Assembly (NCBI GenBank): GCA_009914755.4
Contig: CP086569.2
Coordinates: forward strand, 61,536,001-61,600,000
DNA length: 64,000 nucleotides
Reading direction: 5' to 3'
Origin: the human T2T-CHM13v2.0 reference genome, Homo sapiens
Shown: piece by piece, positions 20,801-59,864 of the stretch
How the letters are laid out: each line of letters opens with the position of its first letter
Position numbering within the stretch: position 1 is the stretch's first letter
The notes under the pieces: model-generated
Database searches by the model: none
Told to the model about the DNA's origin: nothing
What the model saw: the letters and a program-made list of their open reading frames with translations, nothing else
Position numbers and translations under genes: made by a program

Positions 20801-21365
20801 ACTCGAATGGATTCGACTGGAATGGAATGTTCTGGAAGTGAATGGACTCCAATGGAATGGATTCAAAAGGAATGGAATCGTACGGAATGGAATCTAATGG
20901 AATGGAATTAAATGGAAATGAATCAAATGGAATAGCACGGAATTGAATTGAATGGAATCGAATGCAATGGAATCTAATGAAACGGAAAGGAAAGGAATGG
21001 AATGGAATGGAATGGGCTGGAATGGAAAGGAATCGAAATGAATGGAATGGAATCGAACTGAAGAGACTGGAATGGAATGCACTGGAATGGAAGGGAGTGT
21101 AATGGAAGGTTCTCGAAAAAAATGGAATCGAATGGAATGGAATTGAATGGAACGGAATAGAGTCGAATGGAATTGAATGGAATGGAATGGACTAGAGTGA
21201 AATGGAATAGAACCACAAGGAATGGACAGGAATAGAATAGTCTCGAATTGAATGGAATCGTATGGAATGGCATCAAACGGAATGGAATGGATAGCCACGG
21301 AATGGAATGCACTCGAATGCAATGGAGTCGAAACTAATGGACTGGAATAGAATGGACTCGACTGG
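17829..21365 (+). repeat. HOR unit 6 (type C), 3537 bp
   Basis: Runs from anchor 17829 to anchor 21366. The type-C marker gatagccacgg is at about 21290. Confidence 0.85.
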
Positions 21366-24300: not shown

Positions 24301-24914
24301 ATGCAATGGAATGGAATGTATTAGAATGTAATGAACTTTAATGGAATGTACTCGAATGGATTCGACTGGAATGGAATGTTCTGGAAGTGAATGGACTCCA
24401 ATGGAATGGATTCAAAAGGAATGGAATCGTACGGAATGGAATCTAATGGAATGGAATTAAATGGAAATGAATCAAATTGAATAGCACGGAATTGAATTGA
24501 ATGGAATCGAATGCAATGGAATCAAATGAAACGGAAAAGAAAGGAATGGAATGGAATGGAATGGGCTGGAATGGAAAGGAATCGAAACGAATGGAATGGA
24601 ATCGAACTGAAGAGACTGGAATGGAATGCACTGGAATGGAAGGGAGTGTAATGGAAGGTTCTCGAAAAAAATGGAATCGAATGGAATGGAATTGAATGGA
24701 ACGGAATAGAGTCGAATGGAATTGAATGGAATGGAATGGACTAGAGTGAAATGGAATCGAACCACAAGGAATGGACAGGAATAGAATGGTCTCGAATTGA
24801 ATGGAATCGTATGGAATGGCATCAAACGGAATGGAATGGACAGCCACGGAATGGAATGCACTCGAATGCAATGGAGTCGAAACTAATGGACTGGAATAGA
24901 ATGGACTCGACTGG
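21366..24914 (+). repeat. HOR unit 7 (type A), 3549 bp
   Basis: Runs from anchor 21366 to anchor 24915. The type-A marker is at 24501–24695. Confidence 0.85.
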
Positions 24915-27900: not shown

Positions 27901-28488
27901 TGTAATGAACTTTAATGGAATGTACTCGAATGGATTCGACTGGAATGGAATGTTCTGGAAGTGAATGGACTCCAATGGAATGGATTCAAAAGGAATGGGA
28001 TCGTACGGAATGGAATCTAATGGAATGGAATTAAATGGAAATGAATCAAATTGAATAGCACGGAATTGACTTGAATGGAATGGAATGCAATGGAATCTAA
28101 TGAAACGGAAAGGAAAGGAATGGAATGGAATGGAATGGGCTGGAATGGAAAGGAATCGAAACGAATGGAATGGAATCGAACTGAAGAGACTGGAATGGAA
28201 TGCACTGGAATGGAAGGGAGTGTACTGGAAGGTTCTCGAAAATAATGGAATCGAATGGAATGGAATTGAATGGAACGGAATAGAGTCGAATGGAATTGAA
28301 TGGAATGGAATGGACTAGAGTGAAATGGAATCGAACCACAAGGAATGGACAGGAATAGAATGGTCTCGAATTGAATGGAATCGTATGGAATGGCATCAAA
28401 CGGAATGGAATGGACAGCCACGGAATGGAATGCACTCGAATGCAATGGAGTCGAAACTAATGGACTGGAATAGAATGGAATCGACTGG
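24915..28488 (+). repeat. HOR unit 8 (type B), 3574 bp
   Basis: Runs from anchor 24915 to anchor 28489. The type-B marker is at 28085–28318. Confidence 0.85.
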
Positions 28489-31400: not shown

Positions 31401-32030
31401 AATGGAATGGAATGGAATGCAATGGAATGGAATGTGTTAGAATGTAATGAACTTTAATGGAATGTACTCGAATGGATTCGACTGGAATGGAATGTTCTGG
31501 AAGTGAATGGACTCCAATGGAATGGATTCAAAAGGAATGGAATCGTACGGAATGGAATCTAATGGAATGGAATTAAATGGAAATGAATCAAATGGAATAG
31601 CACGGAATTGAATTGAATGGAATCGAATGCAATGGAATCTAATGAAACGGAAAGGAAAGGAATGGAATGGAATGGAATGGGCTGGAATGGAAAGGAATCG
31701 AAATGAATGGAATGGAATCGAACTGAAGAGACTGGAATGGAATGCACTGGAATGGAAGGGAGTGTAATGGAAGGTTCTCGAAAAAAATGGAATCGAATGG
31801 AATGGAATTGAATGGAACGGAATAGAGTCGAATGGAATTGAATGGAATGGAATGGACTAGAGTGAAATGGAATAGAACCACAAGGAATGGACAGGAATAG
31901 AATAGTCTCGAATTGAATGGAATCGTATGGAATGGCATCAAACGGAATGGAATGGATAGCCACGGAATGGAATGCACTCGAATGCAGTGGAGTCGAAACT
32001 AATGGACTGGAATAGAATGGACTCGACTGG
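28489..32030 (+). repeat. HOR unit 9 (type C), 3542 bp
   Basis: Runs from anchor 28489 to anchor 32031. The type-C marker gatagccacgg is at about 31955. Confidence 0.85.
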
Positions 32031-35000
32031 TACGGACTCCAATGGAATGGAATCGAATGGAAGGGAATCGAATGGAATGGACTCGAAGGGAAAAGACTGC
32101 AATGGAAAGGTCTCGAATGGAATGGAAATTAATGGAATGGAATGGAATCGAATGAAATGGAGTCAAAAGGAATGGAATCGAATGGCAAGAAATCGAATGT
32201 AATGGAATCGCAAGGAATTGATGTGAACGGAACAGAATGGAATGGAATCCAAAGGAATGGAATAGAATGGAATGGAATCGAATGGAAAGGACTCGAATGG
32301 AAATCACTCGAATAGAATGCAATTTAATAAAATAGGATCAAATGTAATGGAATGGAATGGAAAGGAATCGAAACGAAAGGAATGGAGACAGATGGAATGG
32401 AATGGAACAGAGAGCAATGGTATAGAATGGAATGGAATCATCTGGAATGGAATTGAATGGAATGGAATAATATGAAATGGAATGGAATGGAATGGAATGG
32501 AATGCCCTTGAATTAAATGGACTGGAATGGAATGGACTCGAACAGAGTGGAATGGAAAGTGTTGAGATAGAATGGAATGGACTCCTTTGGAATGGTGTAG
32601 TATGCAATGCAATCGACTGGCAGGGAATCAAAAGGAATGTAATGGAATGGATTGGACTGGAATGCAATGGACTCGAATAGATTGGAAACGGAATGCAAAG
32701 GGATGGAATGGAATAGTATGGAATGGAATGGAAAGGAATGGAGTGGAATAGACTAGAGTGGAATGGAATGAACTGGAAAGCAATGGACTGGAATGGAACT
32801 TTCTTGAACGGACTGGAATCAAACGGAATGGAATGCAATGCAATCAAATGGCATGGAATAAAATAGAATGAAAGAGAATCAAATGGAATTGAATCGAATG
32901 GAATCGAATGGATTGGAAAGGAATAGAATGGAATGGAATGGAATTGACTCAAATGGAATGGACTAGAATGGAATTTATTCGAATGGAAGGCAAAGGAATG
33001 GAATCTATTGGAATGGACTGTAATGGAATGGAATGGAAGGGATTGGAATGGACTCGAATGGAATGGACTGCAATAGAAAGGATTCGAATGGAATGAAAAA
33101 GAATTGAATGGAATAGAACAGAATGGAATCAAATCGAATGAAATGGAATGGAATAGAAAGGAATGGAATGAAATGGAATGGAAAGGATTCGAATGGAATG
33201 CAATCAAATGGAATGGAATCGAACGGAATGGAATAAAATGGAAGAAAACTGGCAAGAAATGGAATCGAAATGAATGGAGTGTTATGGAACGGACTCAAAA
33301 GGAATTGAATGTAATAGAATGGAGTGGAGTGGACTCGAATATAATGGACTGGAATGGAATGAAATCACATGGAATGGGAACGAATGGAATGGAATGGAAA
33401 GGAATGGAATGGAATGGAAAGGAATCGAATGGAAGGGAATGAAATTGAATCAACAGGAATGGAAGGGAATAGAATAGACGGTAATGGAATGGACTCGAAT
33501 AGAATGGACACGAATGCTCAAATTGAATGGACTCGAAAGGAATGGAAAGGAAAGGAATGTGATCGAATGGAATTGAATCGATTGGAATGAAATCGCATAG
33601 AATGGAGTGGAATCAAATGGAATTGAATCGAAAGGAAAGGAAGCGAATGGACTGAAATGAAATGGAATGGAATTGAATGGAAATTAATGCAATGGAATAG
33701 AATGGAACGAAATTTCACGGAATGGAATCAAACTGAATGGAATCAAATCAATGGAATCTAATCAAATGGAATGGAAAGGAATTGAATGGAGTAGATTGGA
33801 TTGGATGGGATTGGAATGAAATGTACTGGAAAGGACTCGAATTTCATGAAACGGAATGGAATGAATTGGAACGGAATGGACTCGAATGGAATGGAATGTC
33901 ATGGAATGGCATCAAATGGAATGGCATCAAATGGAATGGAATCGAATGCAATGGAATGCTATGGAATGGAATGGAATGCATTGGAATGGAATGTCCTCTA
34001 ATGGAATGGATTCGAGTGGAATGGAATCGAATATAATGGAGTCGAATGAAATGGAATTGAAAGGAATGGGATCGAATACAATGGAATATACTGGAATGTA
34101 ATGTAATGAACTCGAATGTAATTGACTGGAATGGAATGTACATGAATGGAATGTAATCGAATGGAAAGTAATCCAATGGAATAGAATCTAATGCAATAAA
34201 ATCGACTCAGATAGAGTAGAATGTAATGGAATGGAGTGCAGTGGAATGGAATGGAATGGAATGGAATGCAATGGAATGGAATGGAATGGAATGGAATGGG
34301 ATGGAATGGTATGGAATGGATAGTAATGGACTGGAGTGAAATGGACTGGAAAGGAATGGACTCAAATTGAAAGGGCTCGAAAGGAATGGAGTCAAATGGA
34401 ATGGTCTGGAATGGAATGAACACGAATGTAATGCAATCCAATAGAATGGAATCGAATGGCATGGAATATAAAGAAATGGAATCGAAGAGAATGGAAACAA
34501 ATGGAATGGAATTGAATGGAATGGAATTGAATGGAATGGGAACGAATGGAGTGAAATTGTATGCAGTAGAAGAGAATAGAATGGAATGCAAGCGAAAGGA
34601 AAGGAATGGATTAGAATGGAATGGAATTCATTGGAATGGAAGGGAATGTAGTGTAATGGACAGGCCTGGAATAAAGTGGAATGCTACGGTCTCGAATGGA
34701 ATAAAAATGTATGGAATGGAATGCAATGAAACGGAATCGAATGTCATAGAATGTAATGGAATGCAAAAAAATGGACTCCAAAATCATTGACTGGAAAGGC
34801 TGGGTGTCGAAAGGAATTGACTCCAATGGAATGGAATCGAATGGAATGGAAGTGAATAGAATCGAAGTAAATCGAATGGAATGGAATTGATAGGAACGGA
34901 ATGGAAAGGAATGCAATGATTTGGCATGGAATGGAATCGAATGGCATCGAATGGAATGGAATGGAATGCAATGGAATGGAATGTATTAGAAAGTAATGAA

Positions 35001-42100: not shown

Positions 42101-42480
42101 GGAATGGAATGTATTAGAATGTAATGAACTTTAATGGAATGTACTCGAATGGATTCGACTGGAATGGAATGTTCTGGAAGTGAATGGACTCCAATGGAAT
42201 GGATTCAAAAGGAATGGAATCGTACGGAATGGAATCTAATGGAATGGAATTAAATGGAAATGAAGCAAATTGAATAGCACGGAATTGAATTGAATGGAAT
42301 GGAATGCAATGGAATCTAATGAAACGGAAAGGAAAGGAATGGAATGGAATGGAATGGGCTGGAATGGAAAGGAATCGAAACGAATGGAATGGAATCGAAC
42401 TGAAGAGACTGGAATGGAATGCACTGGAATGGAAGGGAGTGTAATGGAAGGTTCTCGAAAAAAATGGAATCGAATGGAAT
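39129..42480 (+). repeat. HOR unit 12, with its 3' end truncated by an internal ~0.65 kb deletion
   Basis: The anchor is at 39129. The unit is collinear with the other units up to about 42480 (unit offset about 3352). At that point the sequence jumps to unit offset about 418. Confidence 0.75.
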
Positions 42481-42510
42481 GGAATTGAATGGAATGGAAT
42501 AATATGAAAA
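42455..42510 (+). other. Deletion breakpoint joining unit offset about 3352 to offset about 418 of the following unit. About 0.6–0.65 kb of sequence is lost, including the unit-boundary anchor.
   Basis: The local sequence is aatcgaatggaatggaattgaatggaatggaataatatgaaaatgaatgg. The left flank matches ggaattgaatggaacggaatagag, normally at offset about 3330. The right flank matches ggaattgaatggaatggaataatatg, normally at offset about 418. Both share ggaattgaatggaa. Confidence 0.7.
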
Positions 42511-45500
42511 TGAATGGAATGGAATGGAATGGAATGCCCTTGAATTAAATGGACTGGAATGGAATGGACTCGAACAGAGTGGAATGGAAAGTGTTGAGAT
42601 AGAATGGAATGGACTCCTTTGGAATGGTCTAGTATGCAATGCAATCGACTGGCAGGGAATCAAAAGGAATGTAATCGAATGGATTGGACTGGAATGCAAT
42701 GGACTCGAATAGATTGGAAACGGAATGCAAAGGAATGGAATGGAATAGTATGGAATGGAATGGAAAGGAATGGAGTGGAATAGACTAGAGTGGAATGGAA
42801 TGGACTGGAAAGCAATGGACTGGAATGGAACTTTCTTGAATGGACTGGAATCAAACGGAATGGAATGCAATGCAATCAAATGGCATGGAATAAAATAGAA
42901 TGAAAGAGAATCAAATGGAATTGAATCGAATGGAATCGAATGGATTGGAAAGGATTAGAATGGAATGGAATGGAATTGACTCAAATGGAATGGACTAGAA
43001 TGGAATGGATTCGAATGGAAGGCAAAGGAATGGAATCTATTGGAATGGACTGTAATGGAATGGAATGGAAGGGATTGGAATGGACTCGAATGGAATGGAC
43101 TGCAATAGAAAGGATTCGAATGGAATGAAAAAGAATTGAATGGAATAGAACAGAATGGAATCAAATCGAATGAAATGGAATGGAAGAGAAAGGAATGGAA
43201 TGAAATGGAATGGAAAGGATTCGAATGGAATGCAATCGAATGGAATGGAATCGAACGGAATGGAATAAAATGGAAGAAAACTGGCAAGAAATGGAATCGA
43301 AATGAACGGAGTGTTATGGAACGGACTCAAAAGGAATTGAATGTAATAGAATGGAGTGGAGTGGACTCGAATATAATGGACTGGAATGGAATGAAATCAC
43401 ATGGAATGGGAACGAATGGAATGGAATGGAAAGGAATGGAATCGAATGGAAAGGAATCGAATGGAAGGGAATGAAATTGAATCAACAGGAATGGAAGGGA
43501 ATAGAATAGACGGTAATGGAATGGACTCGAATAGAATGGACACGAATGCTCAAATTGAATGGACTCGAATGGAATGGAAACGAAAGGAATATCATCGAAT
43601 GGAATTGAATCGATTGGAATGAAATCGCATAGAATGGAGTGGAATCAAATGGAATTGAATCGAAAGGAAAGGAAGCGAATGGACTGAAATGAAATGGAAT
43701 GGAATTGAATGGAAGTAATGCAATGGAATAAAATGGAACGAAATTTCACGGAATGGAATCAAACTGAATGGAATCAAATCAATAGAATCAAATCAAATGG
43801 AATGGAAAGGAATTGAATGGAGTAGATTGGATTGGATGGGATTGGAATGAAATGTACTGGAAAGGACTCGAATTTCACGAAACGGAATGGAATGAATTGG
43901 AACGGAATGGACTCGAATGGAATGGAATGTCATGGAATGGCATCAAATGGAATGGCATCAAATGGAATGGAATCGAATGCAATGGAATGCTATGGAATGG
44001 AATGGAATGCATTGGAATGGAATGTCCTCTAATGGAATGGATTCGAGTGGAATGGAATCGAATATAATGGAGTCGAATGAAATGGAATTGAAAGGAATGG
44101 GATCGAATAGAATGGAATATACTGGAATGTAATGTAATGAACTCGAATGTAATTGACTGGAATGGAATGTACATGAATGGAATGTAATCGAATGGAAAGT
44201 AATCCAATGGAATAGAATCTAATGCAATAAAATCGACTCAGATAGAGTAGAATGTAATGGAATGGAGTGCAGTGCAATGGAATGGAATGGAATGGAATGC
44301 AATGGAATGGAATGGAATGGAATGGAATGGAATGGAATGGGATGGGATGGAATGGTATGGAATGGATAGTAATGGACTGGAGTGAAATGGACTGGAAAGG
44401 AATGGACTCAAATTGAAAGGGCTCGAAAGGAATGGAGTCAAATGGAATGGTCTGGAATGGAATGAACACGAATGTAATGCAATCCAATAGAATGGAATCG
44501 AATGGCATGGGATATAAAGAAATGGAATCGAAGAGAATGGAAACAAATGGAATGGAATTGAATGGAATGGAATTGAATGGAATGGGAACGAATGGAGTGA
44601 AATTGTATGCAGTAGAAGGGAATAGAATGGAATGCAAGCGAAAGGAAAGGAATGGATTGGAATAGAATGGAATTCATTGGAATGGAAGGGAATGTAGTTT
44701 AATGGACAGGCCTGGAATAAAGTGGAATGCTACGGTCTCGAATGGAATAAAAATGTATGGAATGGAATGCAATGAAACGGAATCGAATGTCATAGAATGT
44801 AATGGAATGCAAAAAAATGGAATCCAAAATCATTGACTGGAAAGGCTGGGTGTCGAAAGGAATTGACTCCAATGGAATGGAATCGAATGGAATGGAAGTG
44901 AATAGAATCGAACTAAATCGAATGGAATGGAATTGATAGGAACGGAATGGAAAGGAATGCAATGATTTGGCATGGAATGGAATCGAATGGCATCGAATGG
45001 AATGGAATGGAATGCAATGGAATGGAATGTATTAGAATGTAATGAACTTTAATGGAATGTACTCGAATGGATTCGACTGGAATGGAATGTTCTGGAAGTG
45101 AATGGACTCCAATGGAATGGATTCAAAAGGAATGGAATCGTACGGAATGGAATCTAATGGAATGGAATTAAATGGAAATGAATCAAATTGAATAGCACGG
45201 AATTGAATTGAATGGAATCGAATGCAATGGAATCAAATGAAACGGAAAGGAAAGGAATGGAATGGAATGGAATGGGCTGGAATGGAAAGGAATCGAAACG
45301 AATGGAATGGAATCGAACTGAAGAGACTGGAATGGAATGCACTGGAATGGAAGGGAGTGTAATGGAAGGTTCTCGAAAAAAATGGAATCGAATGGAATGG
45401 AATTGAATGGAACGGAATAGAGTCGAATGGAATTGAATGGAATGGAATGGACTAGAGTGAAATGGAATCGAACCACAAGGAATGGACAGGAATAGAATGG

Positions 45501-45625
45501 TCTCGAATTGAATGGAATCGTATGGAATGGCATCAAACGGAATGGAATGGACAGCCACGGAATGGAATGCACTCGAATGCAATGGAGTCGAAACTAATGG
45601 ACTGGAATAGAATGGACTCGACTGG
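42481..45625 (+). repeat. HOR unit 13, 5'-truncated; it begins at unit offset about 418 and lacks the tacggactcc anchor region
   Basis: From 42481 the sequence ggaattgaatggaatggaataatatgaaaatgaatgg continues collinear with unit offset about 418. The next anchor is at 45626, and the anchor-to-anchor distance 39129 to 45626 is 6497 bp, about 0.6 kb short of two units. Confidence 0.75.
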
Positions 45626-48600
45626 TACGGACTCCAATGGAATGGAATCGAATGGAAGGGAATCGAACGGAATGGCCTCGAAGGGAAAAGACTGCAATGG
45701 AAAGGTCTCGAATGGAATGGAAATTAATGGAATGGAATGGAATCGAATGAAATGGAGTCAAAAGGAATGGAATCGAATGGCAAGAAATCGAATGTAATGG
45801 AATCGCAAGGAATTGATGTGAACGGAACGGAATGGAATGGAATCCAAAGGAATGGAATAGAATGGAATGGAATCGAATGGAAAGGACTCGAATGGAAATC
45901 ACTCGAATAGAATGCAATTTAATAAAATAGGATCAAATGTAATGGAATGGAATGGAAAGGAATCGAAACGAAAGGAATGGAGACAGATGGAATGGAATGG
46001 AACAGAGAGCAATGGTATAGAATGGAATGGAATCATCTGGAATGGAATTGAATGGAATGGAATAATATGAAATGGAATGGAATGGAATGGAATGGAATGC
46101 CCTTGAATTAAATGGACTGCACTCGAACAGAGTGGAACGGAAAGTGTTGAGATAGAATGGAATGGACTCCTTTAGAATGGTCTAGTATGCAATGCAATCG
46201 ACTGGCAGGGAATCAAAAGGAATGTAATGGAATGGATTGGACTGGAATGCAATGGACTCGAATAGATTGGAAACGGAATGCAAAGGAATGGAATGGAATA
46301 GTATGGAATGGAATGGAAAGGAACGGAGTGGAATAGACTAGAGTGGAATGGAATGGACTGGAAAGCAATGGACTGGAATGGAACTTTCTTGAATGGACTG
46401 GAATCAAACGGAATGGAATGCAATGCAATCAAATGGCATGGAATAAAATAGAATGAAAGAGAATCAAATGGAATTGAATCGAATGGAATCGAATGGATTG
46501 GAAAGGAATAGAATGGAATGGAATGGAATTGACTCAAATGGAATGGACTAGAATGGAAAGGATTCGAATGGAAGGCAAAGGAATGGAATCTATTGGAATG
46601 GACTGTAATGGAATGGAATGGAAGGGATTGGAATGGACTCGAATGGAATGGACTGCAATAGAAAGGATGCGAATGGAATGAAAAAGAATTGAATGGAATA
46701 GAACAGAATGGAATCAAATCGAATGAAATGGAATGGAATAGAAAGGAATGGAATGAAATGGAATGGAAAGGATTCGAATGGAATGCAATCGAATGGAATG
46801 GAATCGAACGGAATGGAATAAAATGGAAGAAAACTGGCAAGAAATGGAATCGAAATGGATTATGGAACGGACTCAAAAGGAATTGAATGTAATAGAATGG
46901 AGTGGAGTGGACTCGAATATAATGGACTGGAATGGAATGAAATCACATGGAATGGGAACGAATGGAATGGAATGGAAAGGAATGGAATCGAATGGAAAGG
47001 AATCGAATGGAAGGGAATGAAATTGAATCAACAGGAATGGAAGGGAATAGAATAGACGGTAATGGAATGGACTCGAATAGAATGGACACGAATGCTCAAA
47101 TTGAATGGACTCGAATGGAATGGAAACGAAAGGAATGTCATCGAATGGAATTGAATCGATTGGAATGAAATCGCATAGAATGGAGTGGAATCAAATGGAA
47201 TTGAATCGAAAGGAAAGGAAGCGAATGGACTGAAATGAAATGGAATGGAATTGAATGGAAAGTAATGCAATGGAATAGAATGGAACGAAATTTCACGGAA
47301 TGGAATCAAACTGAATGGAATCAAATCAATGGAATCAAATCAAATGGAATGGAAAGGAATTGAATGGAGTAGATTGGATTGGATGGGATTGGAATGAAAT
47401 GTACTGGAAAGGACTCGAATTTCATGAAACGGAATGGAATGAATTGGAACGGAATGGACTCGAATGGAATGGAATGTCATGGAATGGCATCAAATGGAAT
47501 GGCATCAAATGGAATGGAATCGAATGCAATGGAATGCTATGGAATGGAATGGAATGCATTGGAATGGAATGTCCTCTAATGGAATGGATTCGAGTGGAAT
47601 GGAATCGAATATAATGGAGTCGAATGAAATGGAATTGAAAGGAATGGGATCGAATACAATGGAATATACTGGAATGTAATGTAATGAACTCGAATGTAAT
47701 TGACTGGAATGGAATGTACATGAATGGAATGTAATCGAATGGAAAGTAATCCAATGGAATAGAATCTAATGCAATAAAATCGACTCAGATAGAGTAGAAT
47801 GTAATGGAATGGAGTGCAGTGCAATGGAATGGAATGGAATGGAATGCAATGGAATGGAATGGAATGGAATGGAATGGAATGGAATGGGATGGGATGGAAT
47901 GGTATGGAATGGATAGTAATGGACTGGAGTGAAATGGACTGGAAAGGAATGGACTCAAATTGAAAGGGCTCGAAAGGAATGGAGTCAAATGGAATGGTCT
48001 GGAATGGAATGAACACGAATGTAATGCAATCCAATAGAATGGAATCGAATGGCATGGGATATAAAGAAATGGAATCGAAGAGAATGGAAACAAATGGAAT
48101 GGAATTGAATGGAATGGAATTGAATGGAATGGGAACGAATGGAGTGAAATTGTATGCAGTAGAAGAGAATAGAATGGAATGCAAGCGAAAGGAAAGGAAT
48201 GGATTGGAATGGAATGGAATTCATTGGAATGGAAGGGAATGTAGTGTAATGGACAGGCCTGGAATAAAGTGGAATGCTACGGTCTCGAATGGAATAAAAA
48301 TGTATGGAATGGAATGCAATGAAACGGAATCGAATGTCATAGAATGTAATGGAATGCAAAAAAATGGAATCCAAAATCATTGACTGGAAAGGCTGGGTGT
48401 CGAAAGGAATTGACTCCAATGGAATGGAATCGAATGGAATGGAAGTGAATAGAATCGAACTAAATCGAATGGAATGGAATTGATAGGAACGGAATGGAAA
48501 GGAATGCAATGATTTGGCATGGAATGGAATCGAATGGCATCGAATGGAATGGAATGGAATGCAATGGAATGGAATGTATTAGAATGTAATGAACTTTAAT

Positions 48601-49172
48601 GGAATGTACTCGAATGGATTCGACTGGAATGGAATGTTCTGGAAGTGAATGGACTCCAATGGAATGGATTCAAAAGGAATGGAATCGTACGGAATGGAAT
48701 CTAATGGAATGGAATTAAATGGTAATGAATCAAATTGAATAGCACGGAATTGAATTGAATGGAATGGAATGCAATGGAATCAAATGAAACGGAAAGGAAA
48801 GGAATGGAATGGAATGGAATGGGCTGGAATGGAAAGGAATCGAAACGAATGGAATGGAATCGAACTGAAGAGACTGGAATTGAATGCACTGGAATGGAAG
48901 GGAGTATAATGGAAGGTTCTCGAAAAAAATGGAATCGAATGGAATGGAATTGAATGGAACGGAATAGAGTCGAATGGAATTGAATGGAATGGAATGGACT
49001 AGAGTGAAATGGAATCGAACCACAAGGAATGGACAGGAATAGAATGGTCTCGAATTGAATGGAATCGTATGGAATGGCATCAAACGGAATGGAATGGACA
49101 GCCACGGAATGGAATGCACTCGAATGCAATGGAGTCGAAACTAATGGACTGGAATAGAATGGACTCGATTGG
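45626..49172 (+). repeat. HOR unit 14 (type X), 3547 bp
   Basis: Runs from anchor 45626 to anchor 49173. Its markers are an extra GGCC site at 45674–45677 (aatggcctcg), ggactgcactcgaacagagtggaacgg at about 46110, ctttagaatggtctagtatgc at about 46165 and ggatgcgaatgg at about 46668. Confidence 0.85.
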
Positions 49173-52100
49173 TACGGACTCCAATGGAATGGAATCGAAT
49201 GGAAGGGAATCGAACGGAATGGCCTCGAAGGGAAAAGACTGCAATGGAAAGGTCTCGAATGGAATGGAAATTAATGGAATGGAATGGAATCGAATGAAAT
49301 GGAGTCAAAAGGAATGGAATCGAATGGCAAGAAATCGAATGTAATGGAATCGCAAGGAATTGATGTGAACGGAACGGAATGGAATGGAATCCAAAGGAAT
49401 GGAATAGAATGGAATGGAATCGAATGGAAAGGACTCGAATGGAAATCACTCGAATAGAATGCAATTTAATAAAATAGGATCAAATGTAATGGAATGGAAT
49501 GGAAAGGAATCGAAACGAAAGGAATGGAGACAGATGGAATGGAATGGAACAGAGAGCAATGGTATAGAATGGAATGAAATCATCTGGAATGGAATTGAAT
49601 GGAATGGAATAATATGAAATGGAATGGAATGGAATGGAATGGAATGCCCTTGAATTAAATGGACTGGAATGGAATGGACTCGAACAGAGTGGAATAGAAA
49701 GTGTTGAGATAGAATGGAATGGACTCCTTTGGAATGGTCTAGTATGCAATGCAATCGACTGGCAGGGAATCAAAAGGAATGTAATCGAATGGATTGGACT
49801 GGAATGCAATGGACTCGAATAGATTGGAAACGGAATGCAAAGGAATGGAATGGAATAGTATGGAATGGAATGGAAAGGAACGGAGTGGAATAGACTAGAG
49901 TGGAATGGAATGGACTGGAAAGCAATGGACTGGAATGGAACTTTCTTGAATGGACTGGAATCAAACGGAATGGAATGCAATGCAATCAAATGGCATGGAA
50001 TAAAATAGAATGAAAGAGAATCAAATGGAATTGAATCGAATGGAATCGAATGGATTGGAAAGGAATAGAATGGAATGGAATGGAATTGACTCAAATGGAA
50101 TGGACTAGAATGGAATGGATTCGAATGGAAGGCAAAGGAATGGAATCTATTGGAATGGACTGTAATGGAATGGAATGGAAGGGATTGGAATGGACTCGAA
50201 TGGAATGGACTGCAGTAGAAAGGATTCGAATGGAATGAAAAAGAATTGAATGGAATAGAACAGAATGGAATCAAATCGAATGAAATGGAATGGAATAGAG
50301 AGGAATGGAATGAAATGGAATGGAAAGGATTCGAATGGAATGCAATCGAATGGAATGGAATCGAACGGAATGGAATAAAATGGAAGAAAACTGGCAAGAA
50401 ATGGAATCGAAATGAATGGAGTGTTATGGAACGGACTCAAAAGGAATTGAATGTAATAGAATGGAGTGGAGTGGACTCGAATATAATGGACTGGAATGGA
50501 ATGAAATCACATGGAATGGGAACGAATGGAATGGAATGGAAAGGAATGGAATCGAATGGAAAGGAATCGAATGGAAGGGAATGAAATTGAATCAACAGGA
50601 ATGGAAGGGAATAGAATAGACGGTAATGGAATGGACTCGAATAGAATGGACACGAATGCTCAAATTGAATGGACTCGAATGGAATGGAAACGAAAGGAAT
50701 GTCATCGAATGGAATTGAATCGATTGGAATGAAATCGCATAGAATGGAGTGGAATCAAATGGAATTGAATCGAAAGGAAAGGAAGCGAATGGACTGAAAT
50801 GAAATGGAATGGAATTGAATGGAAAGTAATGCAATGGAATAGAATGGAACGAAATTTCACGGAATGGAATCAAACTGAATGGAATCAAATCAATGGAATC
50901 AAATCAAATGGAATGGAAAGGAATTGAATGGAGTAGAGTGGATTGGATGGGATTGGAATGAAATGTACTGGAAAGGACTCGAATTTCATGAAACGGAATG
51001 GAATGAATTGGAACGGAATGCACTCGAATGGAATGGAATGTCATGGAATGGCATCAAATGGAATGGCATCAAATGGAATGGAATCGAATGCAATGGAATG
51101 CTATGGAATGGAATGGAATGCATTGGAATGGAATGTCCTCTAATGGAATGGATTCGAGTGGAATGGAATCGAATATAATGGAGTCGAATGAAATGGAATT
51201 GAAAGGAATGGGATCGAATACAATGGAATATACTGGAATGTAATGTAATGAACTCGAATGTAATTGACTGGAATGGAATGTACATGAATGGAATGTAATC
51301 GAATGGAAAGTAATCCAATGGAATAGAATCTAATGCAATAAAATCGACTCAGATAGAGTAGAATGTAATGGAATGGAGTGCAGTGCAATGGAATGGAATG
51401 GAATGGAATGCAATGGAATGGAATGGAATGGAATGGAATGGAATGGAATGGAATGGGATGGGATGGAATGGTATGGAATGGATAGTAATGGACTGGAGTG
51501 AAATGGACTGGAAAGGAATGGACTCAAATTGAAAGGGCTCGAAAGGAATGGAGTCAAATGGAATGGTCTGGAATGGAATGAACACGAATGTAATGCAATC
51601 CAATAGAATGGAATCGAATGGCATGGAATATAAAGAAATGGAATCGAAGAGAATGGAAACAAATGGAATGGAATTGAATGGAATGGAATTGAATGGAATG
51701 GGAACGAATGGAGTGAAATTGTATGCAGTAGAAGGGAATAGAATGGAATGCAAGCGAAAGGAAAGGAATGGATTGGAATGGAATGGAATTCATTGGAATG
51801 GAAGGGAATGTAGTTTAATGGACAGGCCTGGAATAAAGTGGAATGCTACGGTCTCGAATGGAATAAAAATGTATGGAATGGAATGCAATGAAACGGAATC
51901 GAATGTCATAGAATGTAATGGAATGCAAAAAAATGGAATCCAAAATCATTGACTGGAAAGGCTGGGTGTCGAAAGGAATTGACTCCAATGGAATGGAATC
52001 GAATGGAATGGAAGTGAATAGAATCGAACTAAATCGAATGGAATGGAATTGATAGGAACGGAATGGAAAGGAATGCAATGATTTGGCATGGAATGGAATC

Positions 52101-52741
52101 GAATGGCATCGAATGGAATGGAATGGAATGCAATGGAATGGAATGTATTAGAATGTAATGAACTTTAATGGAATGTACTCGAATGGATTCGACTGGAATG
52201 GAATGTTCTGGAAGTGAATGGACTCCAATGGAATGGATTCAAAAGGAATGGAATCGTACGGAATGGAATCTAATGGAATGGAATTAAATGGAAATGAATC
52301 AAATTGAATAGCACGGAATTGAATTGAATGGAATCGAATGCAATGGAATCAAATGAAACGGAAAGGAAAGGAATGGAATGGAATGGAATGGGCTGGAATG
52401 GAAAGGAATCGAAACGAATGGAATGGAATCGAACTGAAGAGACTGGAATGGAATGCACTGGAATGGAAGGGAGTGTAATGGAAGGTTCTCGAAAAAAATG
52501 GAATCGAATGGAATGGAATTGAATGGAATGGAATAGAGTCGAATGGAATTGAATGGAATGGAATGGACTAGAGTGAAATGGAATCGAACCACAAGGAATG
52601 GACAGGAATAGAATGGTCTCGAATTGAATGGAATCGTATGGAATGGCATCAAACGGAATGGAATGGACAGCCACGGAATGGAATGCACTCGAATGCAATG
52701 GAGTCGAAACTAATGGACTGGAATAGAATGGACTCGACTGG
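49173..52741 (+). repeat. HOR unit 15 (type D), 3569 bp
   Basis: Runs from the anchor at 49173 (in the variant context gattggtacgg) to the anchor at 52742. It has the extra GGCC at 49221–49224, and reads tggtctagtatgc with ggactggaatggaatggactcg at about 49670. Confidence 0.85.
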
Positions 52742-55700
52742 TACGGACTCCAATGGAATGGAATCGAATGGAAGGGAATCGAACGGAATGGCCTCGAAGG
52801 GAAAAGACTGCAATGGAAAGGTCTCGAATGGAATGGAAATTAATGGAATGGAATGGAATCGAATGAAATGGAGTCAAAAGGAATGGAATCGAATGGCAAG
52901 AAATCGAATGTAATGGAATCGCAAGGAATTGATGTGAACGGAACGGAATGGAATGGAATCCAAAGGAATGGAATAGAATGGAATGGAATCGAATGGAAAG
53001 GACTCGAATGGAAATCACTCGAATAGAATGCAATTTAATAAAATAGGATCAAATGTAATGGAATGGAATGGAAAGGAATCGAAACGAAAGGAATGGAGAC
53101 AGATGGAATGGAATGGAACAGAGAGCAATGGTATAGAATGGAATGGAATCATCTGGAATGGAATTGAATGGAATGGAATAATATGAAATGGAATGGAATG
53201 GAATGGAATGGAATGCCCTTGAATTAAATGGACTGCACTCGAACAGAGTGGAACGGAAAGTGTTGAGATAGAATGGAATGGACTCCTTTAGAATGGTCTA
53301 GTATGCAATGCAATCGACTGGCAGGGAATCAAAAGGAATGTAATGGAATGGATTGGACTGGAATGCAATGGACTCGAATAGATTGGAAACGGAATGCAAA
53401 GGAATGGAATGGAATAGTATGGAATGGAATGGAAAGGAACGGAGTGGAATAGACTAGAGTGGAATGGAATGGACTGGAAAGCAATGGACTGGAATGGAAC
53501 TTTCTTGAATGGACTGGAATCAAACGGAATGGAATGCAATGCAATCAAATGGCATGGAATAAAATAGAATGAAAGAGAATCAAATGGAATTGAATCGAAT
53601 GGAATCGAATGGATTGGAAAGGAATAGAATGGAATGGAATGGAATTGACTCAAATGGAATGGACTAGAATGGAATGGATTCGAATGGAAGGCAAAGGAAT
53701 GGAATCTATTGGAATGGACTGTAATGGAATGGAATGGAAGGGATTGGAATGGACTCGAATGGAATGGACTGCAATAGAAAGGATGCGAATGGAATGAAAA
53801 AGAATTGAATGGAATAGAACAGAATGGAATCAAATCGAATGAAATGGAATGGAATAGAAAGGAATGGAATGAAATGGAATGGAAAGGATTCGAATGGAAT
53901 GCAATCGAATGGAATGGAATCGAACGGAATGGAATAAAATGGAAGAAAACTGGCAAGAAATGGAATCGAAATGAATGGAGTGTTATGGAACGGACTCAAA
54001 AGGAATTGAATGTAATAGAATGGAGTGGAGTGGACTCGAATATAATGGACTGGAATGGAATGAAATCACATGGAATGGGAACGAATGGAATGGAATGGAA
54101 AGGAATGGAATCGAATGGAAAGGAATCGAATGGAAGGGAATGAAATTGAATCAACAGGAATGGAAGGGAATAGAATAGACGGTAATGGAATGGACTCGAA
54201 TAGAATGGACACGAATGCTCAAATTGAATGGACTCGAATGGAATGGAAACGAAAGGAATGTCATCGAATGGAATTGAATCGATTGGAATGAAATCGCATA
54301 GAATGGAGTGGAATCAAATGGAATTGAATCGAAAGGAAAGGAAGCGAATGGACTGAAATGAAATGGAATGGAATTGAATGGAAAGTAATGCAATGGAATA
54401 GAATGGAACGAAATTTCACGGAATGGAATCAAACTGAATGGAATCAAATCAATGGAATCAAATCAAATGGAATGGAAAGGAATTGAATGGAGTAGATTGG
54501 ATTGGATGGGATTGGAATGAAATGTACTGGAAAGGACTCGAATTTCATGAAACGGAATGGAATGAATTGGAACGGAATGGACTCGAATGGAATGGAATGT
54601 CATGGAATGGCATCAAATGGAATGGCATCAAATGGAATGGAATCGAATGCAATGGAATGCTATGGAATGGAATGGAATGCATTGGAATGGAATGTCCTCT
54701 AATGGAATGGATTCGAGTGGAATGGAATCGAATATAATGGAGTCGAATGAAATGGAATTGAAAGGAATGGGATTGAATACAATGGAATATACTGGAATGT
54801 AATGTAATGAACTCGAATGTAATTGACTGGAATGGAATGTACATGAATGGAATGTAATCGAATGGAAAGTAATCCAATGGAATAGAATCTAATGCAATAA
54901 AATCGACTCAGATAGAGTAGAATGTAATGGAATGGAGTGCAGTGCAATGGAATGGAATGGAATGGAATGCAATGGAATGGAATGGAATGGAATGGAATGG
55001 AATGGAATGGAATGGGATGGGATGGAATGGTATGGAATGGATAGTAATGGACTGGAGTGAAATGGACTGGAAAGGAATGGACTCAAATTGAAAGGGCTCG
55101 AAAGGAATGGAGTCAAATGGAATGGTCTGGAATGGAATGAACACGAATGTAATGCAATCCAATAGAATGGAGTCGAATGGCAGGGAATATAAAGAAATGG
55201 AATCGAAGAGAATGGAAACAAATGGAATGGAATTGAATGGAAAGGAATTGAATGGAATGGGAACGAATGGAGTGAAATTGTATGCAGTAGAAGAGAATAG
55301 AATGGAATGCAAGCGAAAGGAAAGGAATGGATTGGAATGGAATGGAATTCATTGGAATGGAAGGGAATGTAGTGTAATGGACAGGCCTGGAATAAAGTGG
55401 AATGCTACGGTCTCGAATGGAATAAAAATGTATGGAATGGAATGCAATGAAACGGAATGGAATGTCATAGAATGTAATGGAATGCAAAAAAATGGAATCC
55501 AAAATCATTGACTGGAAAGGCTGGGTGTCGAATGGAATTGACTCCAATGGAATGGAATCGAATGGAATGGAAGTGAATAGAATCAAACTAAATCGAATGG
55601 AATGGAATTGATAGGAACGGAATGGAAAGGAATGCAATGATTTTGCATGGAATGGAATCGAATGGCATCAAATGGAATGGAATGGAATGCAATGGAATGG

Positions 55701-56300
55701 AATGTATTAGAATGTAATGAACTTTAATGGAATATACTCGAATGGATTCGACTGGAATGGAATGTTCTGGAAGTGAATGGACTCCAATGGAATGGATTCA
55801 AAAGGAATGGAATCGTACGGAATGGAATCTAATGGAATGGAATTAAATGGAAATGAATCAAATTGAATAGCACGGAATTGAATTGAATGGAATGGAATGC
55901 AATGGAATCTAATGAAACGGAAAGGAAAGGAATGGAATGGAATGGAATGGGCTGGAATGGAAAGGAATCGAAACGAATGGAATGGAATCGAACTGAAGAG
56001 ACTGGAATGGAAAGCACTGGAATGGAAGGGAGTGTAATGGAAGGTTCTCGAAAAAAATGGAATCGAATGGAATGCAATTGAATGGAACGGAATAGAGTCG
56101 AATGCAATTGAAAGGAATGGAATGGACTAGAGTGAAATGGAATCGAACCACAAGGAATGGACAGGAATAGAATGGTCTCGAATTGAATGGAATCGTATGG
56201 AATGGCATCAAACGGAATGGAATGGACAGCCACGGAATGGAATGCACTCGAATGCAATGGAGTCGAAACTAATGGACTGGAATAGAATGGACTCGACTGG
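52742..56300 (+). repeat. HOR unit 16 (type X), 3559 bp
   Basis: Runs from anchor 52742 to anchor 56301. It has the extra GGCC at 52790–52793. It shares the unit-14 markers actgcactcgaacagagtggaacgg at about 53232 and ggatgcgaatgg at about 53784. Confidence 0.85.
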
Positions 56301-59300
56301 TAAGGACTCCAATGGAATGGAATCGAATGGAAGGGAAACGAACGGAATGGAATCGAAGGGAAAAGACTGCAATGGAAAGGTCTCGAATGGAATGGAAAAT
56401 AATGGAATGGAATGGAATCGAATGAAATGGAGGCAAAAGGAATGGAATCGAATGGCAAGAAATCGAATGTAATGGAATCGCAAAGAATTTATGTGAACGG
56501 AACGGAATGGAATGGAATCCAAAGGAATGGAATAGAATGGAATGGAATCGAATGGAAAGGACTCGAATGGAAATCACTCGAATAGAATGCAATTTAATAA
56601 AATAGGATCAAATGTAATGGAATGGAATGGAAAGGAATCGAAACGAAAGGAATGGAGACAGATGGAATGGAATGGAACAGAGAGCAATGGTATAGAATGG
56701 AATGGAATCATCTGGAATGGAATTGAATGGAATGGAATAATATGAAATGGAATGGAATGGAATGGAATGCCCTTGAATTAAATGGACTGGAATGGAATGG
56801 ACTCGAACAGAGTGGAATGGAAAGTGTTGAGATAGAATGGAATGGACTCCTTTGGAATGGTCTAGTATGCAATGCAATCGACTGGCAGGGAAACAAAAGG
56901 AATGTAATCGAATGGATTGGACTGGAATGCAATGGACTCGAATAGATTGGAAACGGAATGCAAAGGAATGGAATGGAATAGTATGGAATGGAATGGAAAG
57001 GAATGGAGTGGAATAGACTAGAGTGGAATGGAATGGACTCGAAAGCAATGGACTGGAATGGAACTTACTTGAATGGACTGGAATCAAACGGAATGGAATG
57101 CAATGCAATCAAATGGCATGGAATAAGATAGAATGAAAGAGAATCAAATGGAATTGAATCGAATGGAATCGAATGGATTGGAAAGGAATAGAATGGAATG
57201 GAATGGAATTGACTCAAATGGAATGGACTAGAATGGAATGGATTCGAATGGAAGGCAAAGGAATGGAATCTATTGGAATGGACTGTAATGGAATGCAATG
57301 GAAGGGATTGGAATGGACTCGAATGGAATGGACTGCAATAGAAAGGATTCGAATGGAATGAAAAAGAATTGAATGGAATAGAACAGAATGGAATCAAATC
57401 GAATGAAATGGAATGGAATAGAAAGGAATGGAATGAAATGGAATGGAAAGGATTCGAATGGAATGCAATCGAATGGAATGGAATCGAACGGAATGGAATA
57501 AAATGGAAGAAAACTGGCAAGAAATGGAATCGAAATGAATGGAGTGTTATGGAATGGACGCAAAAGGAATTGAATGTAATAGAATGGAGTGGAGTGGACT
57601 CGAATATAATGGACTGGAATGGAATGAAATCACACGGAATGGGAACGAATGGAATGGAATGGAAAGGAATGGAATCGAATGGAAAGGAATCGAATGGAGG
57701 GGAATGAAATTGAATCAACAGGAATGGAAGGGAATAGAATAGACGGTAATGGAATGGACTCGAATAGAATGGACACGAATGCTCAAATTGAATGGACTCG
57801 AATGGAATGGAAAGGAAAGGAATGTCATCGAATGGAATTGAATCGATTGGAATGAAATCGCATAGAATGGAGTGGAATCAAATGGAATTGAATCGAAAGG
57901 AAAGGAAGCGAATGGACTGAAATGAAATGGAATGGAATTGAATGAAAAGTAATGCAATGGAATAGAGTGGAACGAAATTTCACGGAATGGAATCAAACTG
58001 AATGGAATCAAATCAATGGAATCAAATCAAATGGAATGGAAAGGAATTGAATGGAGTAGATTGGATTGGATGGGATTGGAATGAAATGTACTGGAAAGGA
58101 CTCGAATTTCATGAAACGGAATGGAATGAATTGGAACGGAATGGACTCGAATGGAATGGAATGTCATGGAATGGCATCAAATGGAATGGCATCAAATGGA
58201 ATGGAATCGAATGCAATGGAATGCTATGGAATGGAATGGAATGCATTGGAATGGAATGTCCTCTAATGGAATGGATTCGAGTGGAATGGAATCGAATATA
58301 ATGGAGTCGAATGAAATGGAATTGAAAAAAATGGGATCGAATACAATGGAATATACTGGAATGTAATGTAATGAACTCGAATGTAATTGACTGGAATAGA
58401 ATGTACATGAATGGAATGTAATCGAATGGAAACTAATCCAATGGAATAGAATCTAATGCAATAAAATCGACTCAGATAGAGTAGAATGTAATGGAATGGA
58501 GTGCAGTGCAATGGAATGGAATGGAATGGAATGCAATGGAATGGAATGGAATGCAATGGAATGGAATGGAATGCAATGGAATGGGATGGAATGGTATGGA
58601 ATGGATAGTAATGGACTGGAGTGAAATGGACTGGAAAGGAATGGACTCAAATTGAAAGGGCTCGAAAGGAATGGAGACAAATGGAATGGTCTGGAATGGA
58701 ATGAACACGAATGTAATGCAATCCAATAGAATGGAGTCGAATGGCATGGAATATAAAGAAATGGAATCGAAGAGAATGGAAACAAATGGAATGGAATTGA
58801 ATGGAATGGAATTGAATGGAATGGGAACGAATGGAGTGAAATTGTATGCAGTAGAAGAGAATAGAATGGAATGCAAGCGAAAGGAAAGGAATGGATTGGA
58901 ATGGAATGGAATTCATTGGAATGGAAGGGAATGTAGTGTAATGGACAGGCCTGGAATAAAGTGGAATGCTACGGTCTCGAATGGAATAAAAATGTATGGA
59001 ATGGAATGCAATGAAACGGAATCGAATGTCATAGAATGTAATGGAATGCAAAAAAATGGACTCCAAAATCATTGACTGGAAAGGCTGGGTGTCGAAAGGA
59101 ATTGACTCCAATGGAATGGAATCGAATGGAATGGAAGTGAATAGAATCAAACTAAATCGAATGGAATGGAATTGATAGGAACGGAATGGAAAGGAATGCA
59201 ATGATTTGGCATGGAATGGAACCGAATGGCATCGAATGGAATGGAATGGAATGCAATGGAATGGAATGTATTAGAATGTAATGAACTTTAATGGAATGTA

Positions 59301-59864
59301 CTCGAATGGATTCGACTGGAATGGAATGTTCTGGAAGTGAATGGACTCCAATGGAATGGATTCAAAAGGAATGGAATCGTACGGAATGGAATCTAATGGA
59401 ATGGAATTAAATGGAAATGAATCAAATTGAATAGCACGGAATTGAATTGAATGGAATGGAATGCAATGGAATCTAATGAAACGGAAAGGAAAGGAATGGA
59501 ATGGAATGGAATGGGCTGGAATGGAAAGGAATCGAAACGAATGGAATGGAATCGAACTGAAGAGACTGGAATGGAATGCACTGGAATGGAAGGGAGTGTA
59601 ATGGAAGGTTCTCGGAAAAAATGGAATGCAATGGAATGGAATTGAATGGAACGGAATAGAGTCGAATGGAATTGAATGGAATGGAATGGACTAGAGTGAA
59701 ATGGAATCGAACCACAAGGAATGGACAGGAATAGAATGGTCTCGAATTGAATGGAATCGTATGGAATGGCATCAAACGGAATGGAATGGACAGCCACGGA
59801 ATGGAATGCACTCGAATGCAATGGAGTCGAAACTAATGGACTGGAATAGAATGGACTCGACTGG
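56301..59864 (+). repeat. HOR unit 17 (type D-like), 3564 bp
   Basis: Runs from the anchor variant taaggactcc at 56301 to the anchor at 59865. Private variants include gggaaacgaacgg and gaaaataatgg near 56330–56400. Confidence 0.8.

What the first reader, a model, noticed from the sequence alone, without database searches (positions are those of the whole stretch)
45626..59864. Downstream domain organised as a two-unit (~7.12 kb) super-repeat
Units 14 and 16 share private variants: actgcactcgaacagagtggaacgg, ctttagaatggtctagtatgc, ggatgcgaatgg and a cac/cat change giving HSHPF in the artefact ORF. These lie 7116 bp apart (46110 / 53232; 46668 / 53784). Units 15 and 17 share tggtctagtatgc with ggactggaatggaatggactcg, 7128 bp apart. 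Different super-repeat periods of 10.66 kb and 7.1 kb within one 64 kb stretch show that the array is a patchwork of independently amplified blocks.
Basis: seen in the sequence. Interest (0 to 1): 0.5.

Follow-up and report, generated by a model that had tools for sequence, protein, structure and literature searches.

The report
Patchy two-unit duplication in Y satellite
The window is ordinary human Y-chromosome DYZ1 satellite DNA, and the proposed 14-kb "two-unit super-repeat" is really one 2–3.7 kb patch copied two repeat units away, which is expected behaviour for this satellite.

Summary
The window holds 18.2 tandem ~3.55-kb units of (GGAAT)n-derived satellite. HaeIII periodicity, published DYZ1 primers and the HSat3A6 marker 24-mer identify it as human Yq12 DYZ1/HSat3A6.

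**What holds up.** They lie in a genuine near-identical tract, 44665–47650 vs 51781–54773, with 3 substitutions and one 7-bp indel. Every other homologous segment differs at 20 or more sites.

**What does not.** The tract is at most 3.7 kb, starts in unit 13 and stops 2.0 kb into unit 14.
- Over whole units, U14 is as close to U15 (25 differences) as to U16 (24).
- U15 and U17 share no private variant and differ at 48 sites. Their "shared" strings are a common DYZ1 polymorphism plus the ancestral, undeleted state.
- Outside the tract, lag-2 similarity equals background.

The upstream 10.67-kb three-unit super-repeat (~2500–34800) is solid, so the "patchwork" idea holds.

**Most likely mechanism (inferred).** Sister-chromatid gene conversion with a two-unit misalignment. 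The less likely alternative is an eroded 7.1-kb duplication. Both processes are already documented for Yq12, so interest is low.

The parts
44665..47650 (+). Copy 1 of the near-identical tract at a two-unit lag (3' ~1 kb of unit 13 plus 5' ~2.0 kb of unit 14). Looser limits are 44111-47847.
   Evidence: A direct pairwise alignment shows only 3 substitutions (45413, 46559, 46858) and one 7-bp indel (46860) against copy 2. The 3000-column scan gives 4 differences here, against a median of 34 at lag 2.
51781..54773 (+). Copy 2 of the tract (3' ~1 kb of unit 15 plus 5' ~2.0 kb of unit 16). The lag is 7116 bp up to 46859, then 7123 bp.
46106..46676 (+). 'X' haplotype in unit 14. It comprises the 10-bp deletion, G>C at 46120, T>C at 46138, G>A at 46174 and T>G at 46669.
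   Evidence: The three private SNVs are absent from 39 independent DYZ1 loci.
53222..53792 (+). The same 'X' haplotype in unit 16.
45626..49172 (+). Unit 14 (3547 bp). It is a mosaic: the 5' ~2.1 kb is U16-like, and the 3' ~1.5 kb is closer to U15, U13, U1 and U4.
49173..52741 (+). Unit 15 (3569 bp). Its nearest whole-unit neighbours are U1, U13 and U14, not U17.
52742..56300 (+). Unit 16 (3559 bp). The 3' ~1.5 kb is divergent from every other unit and carries 11 singleton variants.
56301..59864 (+). Unit 17 (3564 bp). It is the most divergent unit in the window, with 28 singleton variants and 13-18 differences/kb to every other unit.
2500..34800 (+). Context: a three-unit (10.66-10.67 kb) super-repeat, about three copies at 99.5-100% identity.
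   Evidence: Private shared sites are (2,5,8) 18, (3,6,9) 15 and (4,7,10) 8. These variants are essentially absent from independent DYZ1 copies.
42475..42501 (+). Junction of a ~620-bp deletion spanning the unit 12/13 boundary.
   Evidence: It produces a 2934-bp spacing and a 2918-bp HaeIII fragment.

Best explanation
The window is human Yq12 DYZ1 (HSat3A6) satellite. Region 45626-59864 is not a two-unit higher-order repeat. It is a heterogeneous run of ~3.56-kb units, 0.7-1.5% apart, that contains one recently shared patch of ~3.0 kb. The firmly specific part of that patch is 2.0 kb, and its outer limit is 3.7 kb. The patch lies at a distance of exactly two units: 44665-47650 vs 51781-54773.

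The most likely origin is non-reciprocal sequence transfer during repair between sister chromatids, or within one chromatid, misaligned by two units. In other words, a gene conversion or a short templated repair patch. It copied a locally arisen variant haplotype ('X') from one unit into the unit two positions away.

Shown: the tract, its limits, its uniqueness, the derived and local nature of its variants, and the absence of any U15/U17 pairing.

Inferred: the mechanism (conversion rather than duplication) and the misalignment by two units. The direction of transfer is unknown.
For: Identity of the satellite:
- HaeIII sites recur every 3533-3579 bp.
- Four published DYZ1 primers match exactly once in each complete unit or nearly so (16-18 sites each, C, D, E, F of PMC3925983 Table 5).
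- The HSat3A6 marker 24-mer of PMC4022460 occurs 32 times.
- The classic 154-bp Y-PCR primer pair hits once per unit.
- Fragments matching a DYZ1 primer site (the control string) turn up as contaminants in metagenomes, at least one of them human-gut.

The tract:
- There are 4 differences in 2986 bp, against 20-46 for all 15 other homologous segments.
- A lag-2 scan gives a minimum of 4 and a median of 34 per 3000 columns. Other lags outside the three-unit repeat give a minimum of 16.
- The boundaries are sharp. Divergence is 14 differences in the 1.5 kb to the left of 44110 and 69 in the 4.9 kb to the right of 47848.
- The triplet test shows a breakpoint in U14 and U16 near column 2131 (p = 1.6e-5).

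Conversion rather than duplication:
- The sequence that a 7.1-kb duplication would also have copied (47848-51226 vs 54964-58340) is as diverged as unrelated units.
- It carries many variants seen nowhere else in the window (11 singletons in U16, 28 in U17).
- One 3-kb transfer therefore explains the data, whereas a duplication needs several later overwriting events from unseen donors.

Literature:
- Interlocus gene conversion is inferred from father-son transmissions in Yq12, and whole-unit de novo structural variants are observed there (PMC12240836; 10.64898/2026.06.03.729890).
- Sister-chromatid exchange and unequal exchange are reported for Yq12 in the T2T-Y paper (10.1101/2022.12.01.518724).
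Against: - A 3-kb conversion tract is long by mammalian meiotic standards. A tandem duplication followed by erosion cannot be excluded from one window.
- The leftmost ~1 kb of the tract (the 3' ends of U13 and U15) is also within 2 differences of U1, U4 and U7. Only ~2.0 kb (45626-47650) is specifically lag-2.
- U18 shares the 10-bp deletion and the G>A with U14 and U16, and U19 shares the deletion. Over a ~600-bp stretch, U13-U18 therefore read D-X-D-X-D-X'. This could be a faint relic of an older two-unit periodicity.
- Assembly accuracy in this satellite cannot be checked here.
Confidence: 0.6

Rival explanations
1. A true two-unit (7.1 kb) tandem duplication produced by unequal sister-chromatid exchange with a two-unit offset. 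It would be roughly as old as the upstream triplication. More than half of it was later overwritten by conversions or exchanges with other units, leaving only the 3-kb remnant.
For: - Unit-multiple tandem duplications clearly occur in this very window: the 10.67-kb triplication.
- They are also reported for Yq12 (10.1101/2022.12.01.518724; PMC12240836).
- The lag is an exact unit multiple.
- Over columns ~497-618, states alternate across U13-U18.
Against: - Outside the tract, lag-2 divergence is about 14/kb, which is at or above background. There is no residual signal.
- U15 and U17 share no private site.
- The overwritten parts carry many singleton variants with no donor in the window. At least two further large events are therefore needed.
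Confidence: 0.27
2. One reading: 45626-59864 is two intact copies of an X-D two-unit higher-order repeat, with U14=U16 and U15=U17.
For: Three private SNVs are shared by U14 and U16 at a 7116-bp spacing.
Against: - U14-U15 has 25 differences against 24 for U14-U16. U15-U17 has 48, spread evenly over the unit.
- U15 and U17 share no private site.
- The strings quoted for U15/U17 are a common DYZ1 polymorphism (11:10 in independent copies) plus the ancestral undeleted state (17:1).
- The mean per-kb distance within U14-U17 is 10.0 at lag 1 and 9.9 at lag 2.
Confidence: 0.03
3. Assembly artefact: the second X haplotype results from mis-placement or collapse of reads during assembly of a near-identical satellite.
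For: Nothing specific. Yq12 is acknowledged as the hardest Y region to assemble (10.1101/2022.12.01.518658).
Against: - The two copies are not identical (3 substitutions and a 7-bp indel).
- They sit in different flanking contexts with sharp boundaries. This is not what a simple collapse or duplication error would look like.
Confidence: 0.05

Closest known systems
DYZ1 / HSat3A6, the ~3.56-kb HaeIII repeat of human Yq12
   Same: - The unit length, HaeIII periodicity and GGAAT/ATTCC pentamer base all match.
- Published primers and the subfamily marker 24-mer match.
- Units are 98.2-99.9% identical, in line with the 'over 98% identical' reported for T2T-Y.
   Different: Nothing at family level. 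The window is an instance of the family. The chromosomal position could not be checked.
Multi-unit higher-order repeats of satellites (alpha-satellite HORs; here the 3-unit DYZ1 block at ~2500-34800)
   Same: The upstream block behaves like an HOR. Units three apart are 0.3-3.3/kb different, and neighbours are 9-13/kb different.
   Different: - The downstream region lacks that property apart from one 3-kb patch.
- The type-specific variants of the upstream block are also local. They are absent from independent DYZ1 copies, so the block is a local triplication rather than an array-wide HOR.
Interlocus gene conversion and unit-sized structural mutation in Yq12 seen in pedigrees (PMC12240836; 10.64898/2026.06.03.729890)
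   Same: Derived variants are shared between non-adjacent units in a patch with sharp edges, on a chromosome region with no homologue to recombine with.
   Different: - The pedigree events were called from single or clustered SNVs, and their tract lengths are not established.
- The tract here is 2-3.7 kb, and its history is inferred, not observed.

Membership tests
DYZ1 / HSat3A6 (human Yq12 satellite) | Tandem unit of ~3.56 kb delimited by one HaeIII (GGCC) site | tested here: met
   GGCC sites give fragments of 3533-3579 bp. The exceptions are one deletion unit and an extra site in U14-U16. Unit starts are spaced 3537-3584 bp apart.
DYZ1 / HSat3A6 (human Yq12 satellite) | Built from diverged GGAAT/ATTCC pentamers | tested here: met
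   TRF reports one array over 11-63931 with consensus AATGGAATGGAATCG. GC skew is +0.54 to +0.61 throughout.
DYZ1 / HSat3A6 (human Yq12 satellite) | Matches published DYZ1-specific primers and the HSat3A6 marker 24-mer | tested here: met
   - Primers C, D, E and F of PMC3925983 Table 5 match exactly, at 16-18 sites each.
- The 24-mer TCGTTTCGATTCCTTTCCATTCCA (PMC4022460) occurs 32 times.
- The 154-bp primer pair, recalled from memory, hits once per unit.
DYZ1 / HSat3A6 (human Yq12 satellite) | Located on the Y long arm and male-specific | not testable with these tools
   No human genome assembly is available in the tool set.
   U14-U16 is 6.6/kb, U14-U15 is 6.9/kb, and U15-U17 is 13.2/kb against 8.6/kb for U15-U16.
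   (14,16) share 3 private sites and (15,17) share 0. For comparison, the real three-unit repeat has 18, 15 and 8.
   Lag-7116 near-identity covers 3.0-3.7 kb of the 7.1 kb. The rest is at background divergence.
Gene-conversion tract between paralogous repeats | A patch of near-identity with sharp boundaries, flanked by normally diverged sequence on both sides | tested here: met
Gene-conversion tract between paralogous repeats | Non-reciprocal transfer with no change in copy number | not testable with these tools
   This needs the ancestral or sister haplotype of this locus.

The most novel reading that the evidence does not exclude
DYZ1 blocks may be organised throughout into short-lived local domains, each with its own multi-unit period. 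Here that would be a 3-unit 10.67-kb triplication next to a trace of 2-unit exchange. If so, the preferred misalignment offsets of sister-chromatid repair in Yq12 could be read directly from such domains. I did not find this layer of structure explicitly catalogued for DYZ1 in the papers I read.
Probability: 0.3. Interest if true: 0.3.

Novelty: already known. Interest (0 to 1): 0.1.

Why it matters
It matters little on its own. The result is a worked local example of how DYZ1 homogenises, through unit-multiple tandem amplification and patchy sequence transfer between units a few positions apart. This agrees with published T2T-Y and pedigree results.

There are two practical lessons:
- A few shared private variants clustered in about 600 bp are not enough to call a higher-order repeat.
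- Shared ancestral states and common polymorphisms should not be counted as evidence of pairing.

If surveyed array-wide, the tract lengths and lag distribution of such patches could help estimate conversion and exchange parameters in Yq12.

Tried and rejected
- **Ungapped lag autocorrelation.** It shows peaks at ~3549-3574 and ~10660-10670 but is blurred by indels. I replaced it with 1-kb BLAST tiling and unit alignment.
- **First unit alignment.** It misaligned U13 because a 620-bp deletion removes the unit boundary. I redid it with corrected boundaries.
- **Exact search for the X-specific 25-mer.** It gave 0 hits in both metagenome and bacterial/archaeal genome collections. A control search with a DYZ1 primer site found 39 loci, so the absence is informative. 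Those loci are mostly short or collapsed contigs, however, and cannot show multi-unit structure.
- **Literature search for the classic 154-bp primer sequences.** It returned nothing. That primer pair therefore rests on memory, and the identification rests instead on PMC3925983 and PMC4022460.
- **Rfam scan.** No family matched.
- **ORFs of 129-305 aa.** They are mostly on the minus strand and are read-through of the pentamer repeat, not genes. The 'HSHPF' feature is just the T>G SNV seen in translation.
- **A phase-shifted two-unit repeat (U13-U14 | U15-U16).** It still fails, because only 3-3.7 kb of the 7.1 kb is similar.
Full report
**What the sequence is**

The whole 64-kb window is one tandem array of diverged GGAAT pentamers. 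TRF reports a single array over 11-63931, and GC skew is about +0.57 throughout.

One boundary is missing because a ~620-bp deletion spans the U12/U13 junction at 42475-42501.

Several tests identify the array as human Yq12 DYZ1, subfamily HSat3A6:
- GGCC (HaeIII) sites recur every 3533-3579 bp.
- Primers C, D, E and F published for the 3.56-kb DYZ1 HaeIII unit (PMC3925983, Table 5) match exactly, at 16-18 sites each.
- The HSat3A6 marker 24-mer of Altemose et al. (PMC4022460) occurs 32 times.
- The classic 154-bp Y-PCR primer pair, recalled from memory, hits once per unit with 154-bp spacing.
- Fragments matching a DYZ1 primer site (the control string) appear as contaminants in metagenomes, at least one from human gut, and in some 'bacterial' assemblies. 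The T2T-Y paper predicted this kind of contamination (10.1101/2022.12.01.518724).

Chromosomal position itself cannot be tested here.

**Checking the observation**

The three strings quoted for units 14 and 16 each occur exactly twice, at 46116/53232, 46170/53286 and 46665/53781, always 7116 bp apart. 'HSHPF' occurs only at 46661-46675 and 53777-53791 on the minus strand. It is the same T>G change as ggatgcgaatgg, not a fourth variant.

In an alignment of all 19 units, the pair (14,16) shares three private SNVs. It also shares a 10-bp deletion and a G>A that are found in U18 as well, the deletion in U19 too.

None of the three private SNVs occurs in 39 independent DYZ1 loci. Those loci show the other state 24, 13 and 23 times at the sites tested. 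The variants are therefore derived and local.

The U15/U17 half is not confirmed:
- tggtctagtatgc is present in six consecutive units (U12-U17), and ggactggaatggaatggactcg in twelve units.
- The combination occurs in U12, U13, U15 and U17, and the spacing is 7123 bp, not 7128.
- In independent DYZ1 copies the C/G alternative inside tggtCtagtatgc is a balanced polymorphism (11:10), and the undeleted state is the ancestral one (17:1).
- U15 and U17 share no private alignment column and no private 21-mer.

**Testing the interpretation**

Whole-unit differences (substitutions plus indel events) are as follows:

| Pair | Differences |
|---|---|
| U14-U16 | 24 |
| U14-U15 | 25 |
| U15-U16 | 31 |
| U15-U17 | 48 |
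| U14-U17 | 53 |
| U16-U17 | 53 |

U15's nearest neighbours are U1, U13 and U14. U17 is the most divergent unit in the window, with 28 singleton variants. Within U14-U17 the mean distance is 10.0/kb at lag 1 and 9.9/kb at lag 2.

The equality of U14-U15 and U14-U16 hides a mosaic. U14 and U16 differ at only 3 sites in the first ~2130 alignment columns, but at 21 in the last ~1500. Sites where U15 is the odd one out split 12:4 on the two sides of column 2131. Sites where U16 is the odd one out split 0:15 (Fisher p = 1.6e-5).

**What is really there**

1-kb BLAST tiles have their best non-self match at +7116 only for tiles starting at 44501-46501, and reciprocally for 51501-53001.

A direct alignment defines a core tract of 44665-47650 vs 51781-54773. 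It has three substitutions (45413, 46559, 46858) and one 7-bp indel at 46860. With looser edges (44111-47847) there are 8 differences in 3.7 kb. To the left there are 14 differences in 1.5 kb, and to the right 69 in 4.9 kb.

The tract is a clear outlier:
- In a 3000-column scan, the tract is the lag-2 minimum (4) against a lag-2 median of 34. No other lag outside the three-unit repeat falls below 16.
- Compared with all 15 other homologous boundary-spanning segments, the tract differs from (U15|U16) at 4 sites, and from the next-best at 20.

One caveat applies. The leftmost ~1 kb (the 3' ends of U13 and U15) is also within 2 differences of U1, U4 and U7. The strictly specific part is therefore the first ~2.0 kb of U14 and U16.

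The feature is real and far beyond chance. But it is a 2-3.7 kb patch at a two-unit distance, it starts in unit 13, and it is not a 2 x 7.1 kb super-repeat.

**Context**

Lag 10660-10670 gives 99.5-100% identity for tiles from ~2500 to ~34500. There are 18, 15 and 8 private shared sites for (2,5,8), (3,6,9) and (4,7,10), and 0.3-3.3 differences/kb between equivalent units.

These type-specific variants are essentially absent from independent DYZ1 copies: 3 derived against about 1090 other-state k-mer hits. The block is therefore a local, recent triplication of a 10.67-kb segment, not an array-wide repeat type.

The general statement that the window is a patchwork of blocks with separate histories is supported. 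The specific second period of 7.1 kb is not.

**Mechanism**

Two mechanisms fit a patch at an exact unit multiple.

(a) Non-reciprocal transfer, meaning gene conversion or templated repair, between sister chromatids misaligned by two units.

(b) A 7.1-kb tandem duplication by unequal exchange that was later eroded.

I favour (a), with a probability of about 0.6 against 0.27 for (b). A duplication would also have copied 47848-51226 to 54964-58340. Those segments are as diverged as unrelated units, and they carry many variants with no donor in the window (11 singletons in U16, 28 in U17). Model (b) therefore needs several additional large events.

Points in favour of (b):
- The neighbouring triplication shows that unit-multiple duplication operates here.
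- Over ~600 bp, the states of U13-U18 alternate.
- A 3-kb conversion tract is long.

Both processes are documented for Yq12. The evidence includes iterative tandem duplications, unequal exchange and sister-chromatid exchange in T2T-Y (10.1101/2022.12.01.518724). It also includes interlocus gene conversion and unit-sized de novo structural variants in pedigrees (PMC12240836; 10.64898/2026.06.03.729890), and greater homogeneity in the middle of arrays (10.1101/2022.12.01.518658).

An assembly artefact cannot be excluded without reads. It is unlikely, because the copies differ at four positions and sit in different contexts.

**Other checks**

No Rfam family matches. ORFs of 129-305 aa are pentamer read-through.

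**Verdict**

The feature is an ordinary instance of known DYZ1 dynamics. Novelty: already known. Interest: 0.1.

Noticed in passing
window ~2500-34800: A three-unit (10.66-10.67 kb) super-repeat with about three copies at 99.5-100% identity. It has 41 type-private shared sites, and these variants are essentially absent from independent DYZ1 copies. It is therefore a local recent triplication rather than an array-wide repeat type.
   Followed up: partly
window 42475-42501: The junction of a ~620-bp deletion that removes the U12/U13 unit boundary (unit offset ~3341 joined to offset ~413 of the next unit). About 26 bp align on both sides of the junction. The deletion gives a 2934-bp spacing and a 2918-bp HaeIII fragment.
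   Followed up: partly
window 45674, 49221, 52790: An A>C change creates an extra HaeIII site in three consecutive units (U14, U15, U16). Their HaeIII fragments split into 965 bp plus about 2590 bp. A T>C at alignment column 713 has the same distribution. Neither change was seen in independent DYZ1 copies. This is a one-unit-periodic local variant superimposed on the lag-2 patch.
   Followed up: partly
window 35580-39128 (U11) and 56301-59864 (U17): These two units are much more divergent than the rest, with 27 and 28 singleton variants and 12-18 differences/kb to all other units. They flank the heterogeneous downstream domain.
   Followed up: no
window ~46115, 53231, 60354, 63904; locus L020: A 10-bp deletion (TGGAATGGAA) between two ATGGAC direct repeats is present in U14, U16, U18 and U19, and in 1 of 18 independent DYZ1 copies. 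It is probably a recurrent slippage event, so it is a weak marker of relatedness.
   Followed up: partly
loci L034-L039 (e.g. BMRF01000076.1 Actinomadura cremea JCM 3308; BMTN01000077.1 Streptomyces kurssanovii JCM 4388): Contigs of 1-3.6 kb that carry an exact DYZ1 primer site sit in assemblies labelled as bacterial genomes, and in 33 metagenome loci. This is human Y-satellite contamination of public records.
   Followed up: no
window 55624-55664 vs 62738-62778: One further private 21-mer cluster is shared at a two-unit lag (7114 bp) between U16 and U18. It is the only lag-2 signal outside the 44.7-46.7 kb tract. Six private clusters occur at a one-unit lag in the same domain.
   Followed up: no
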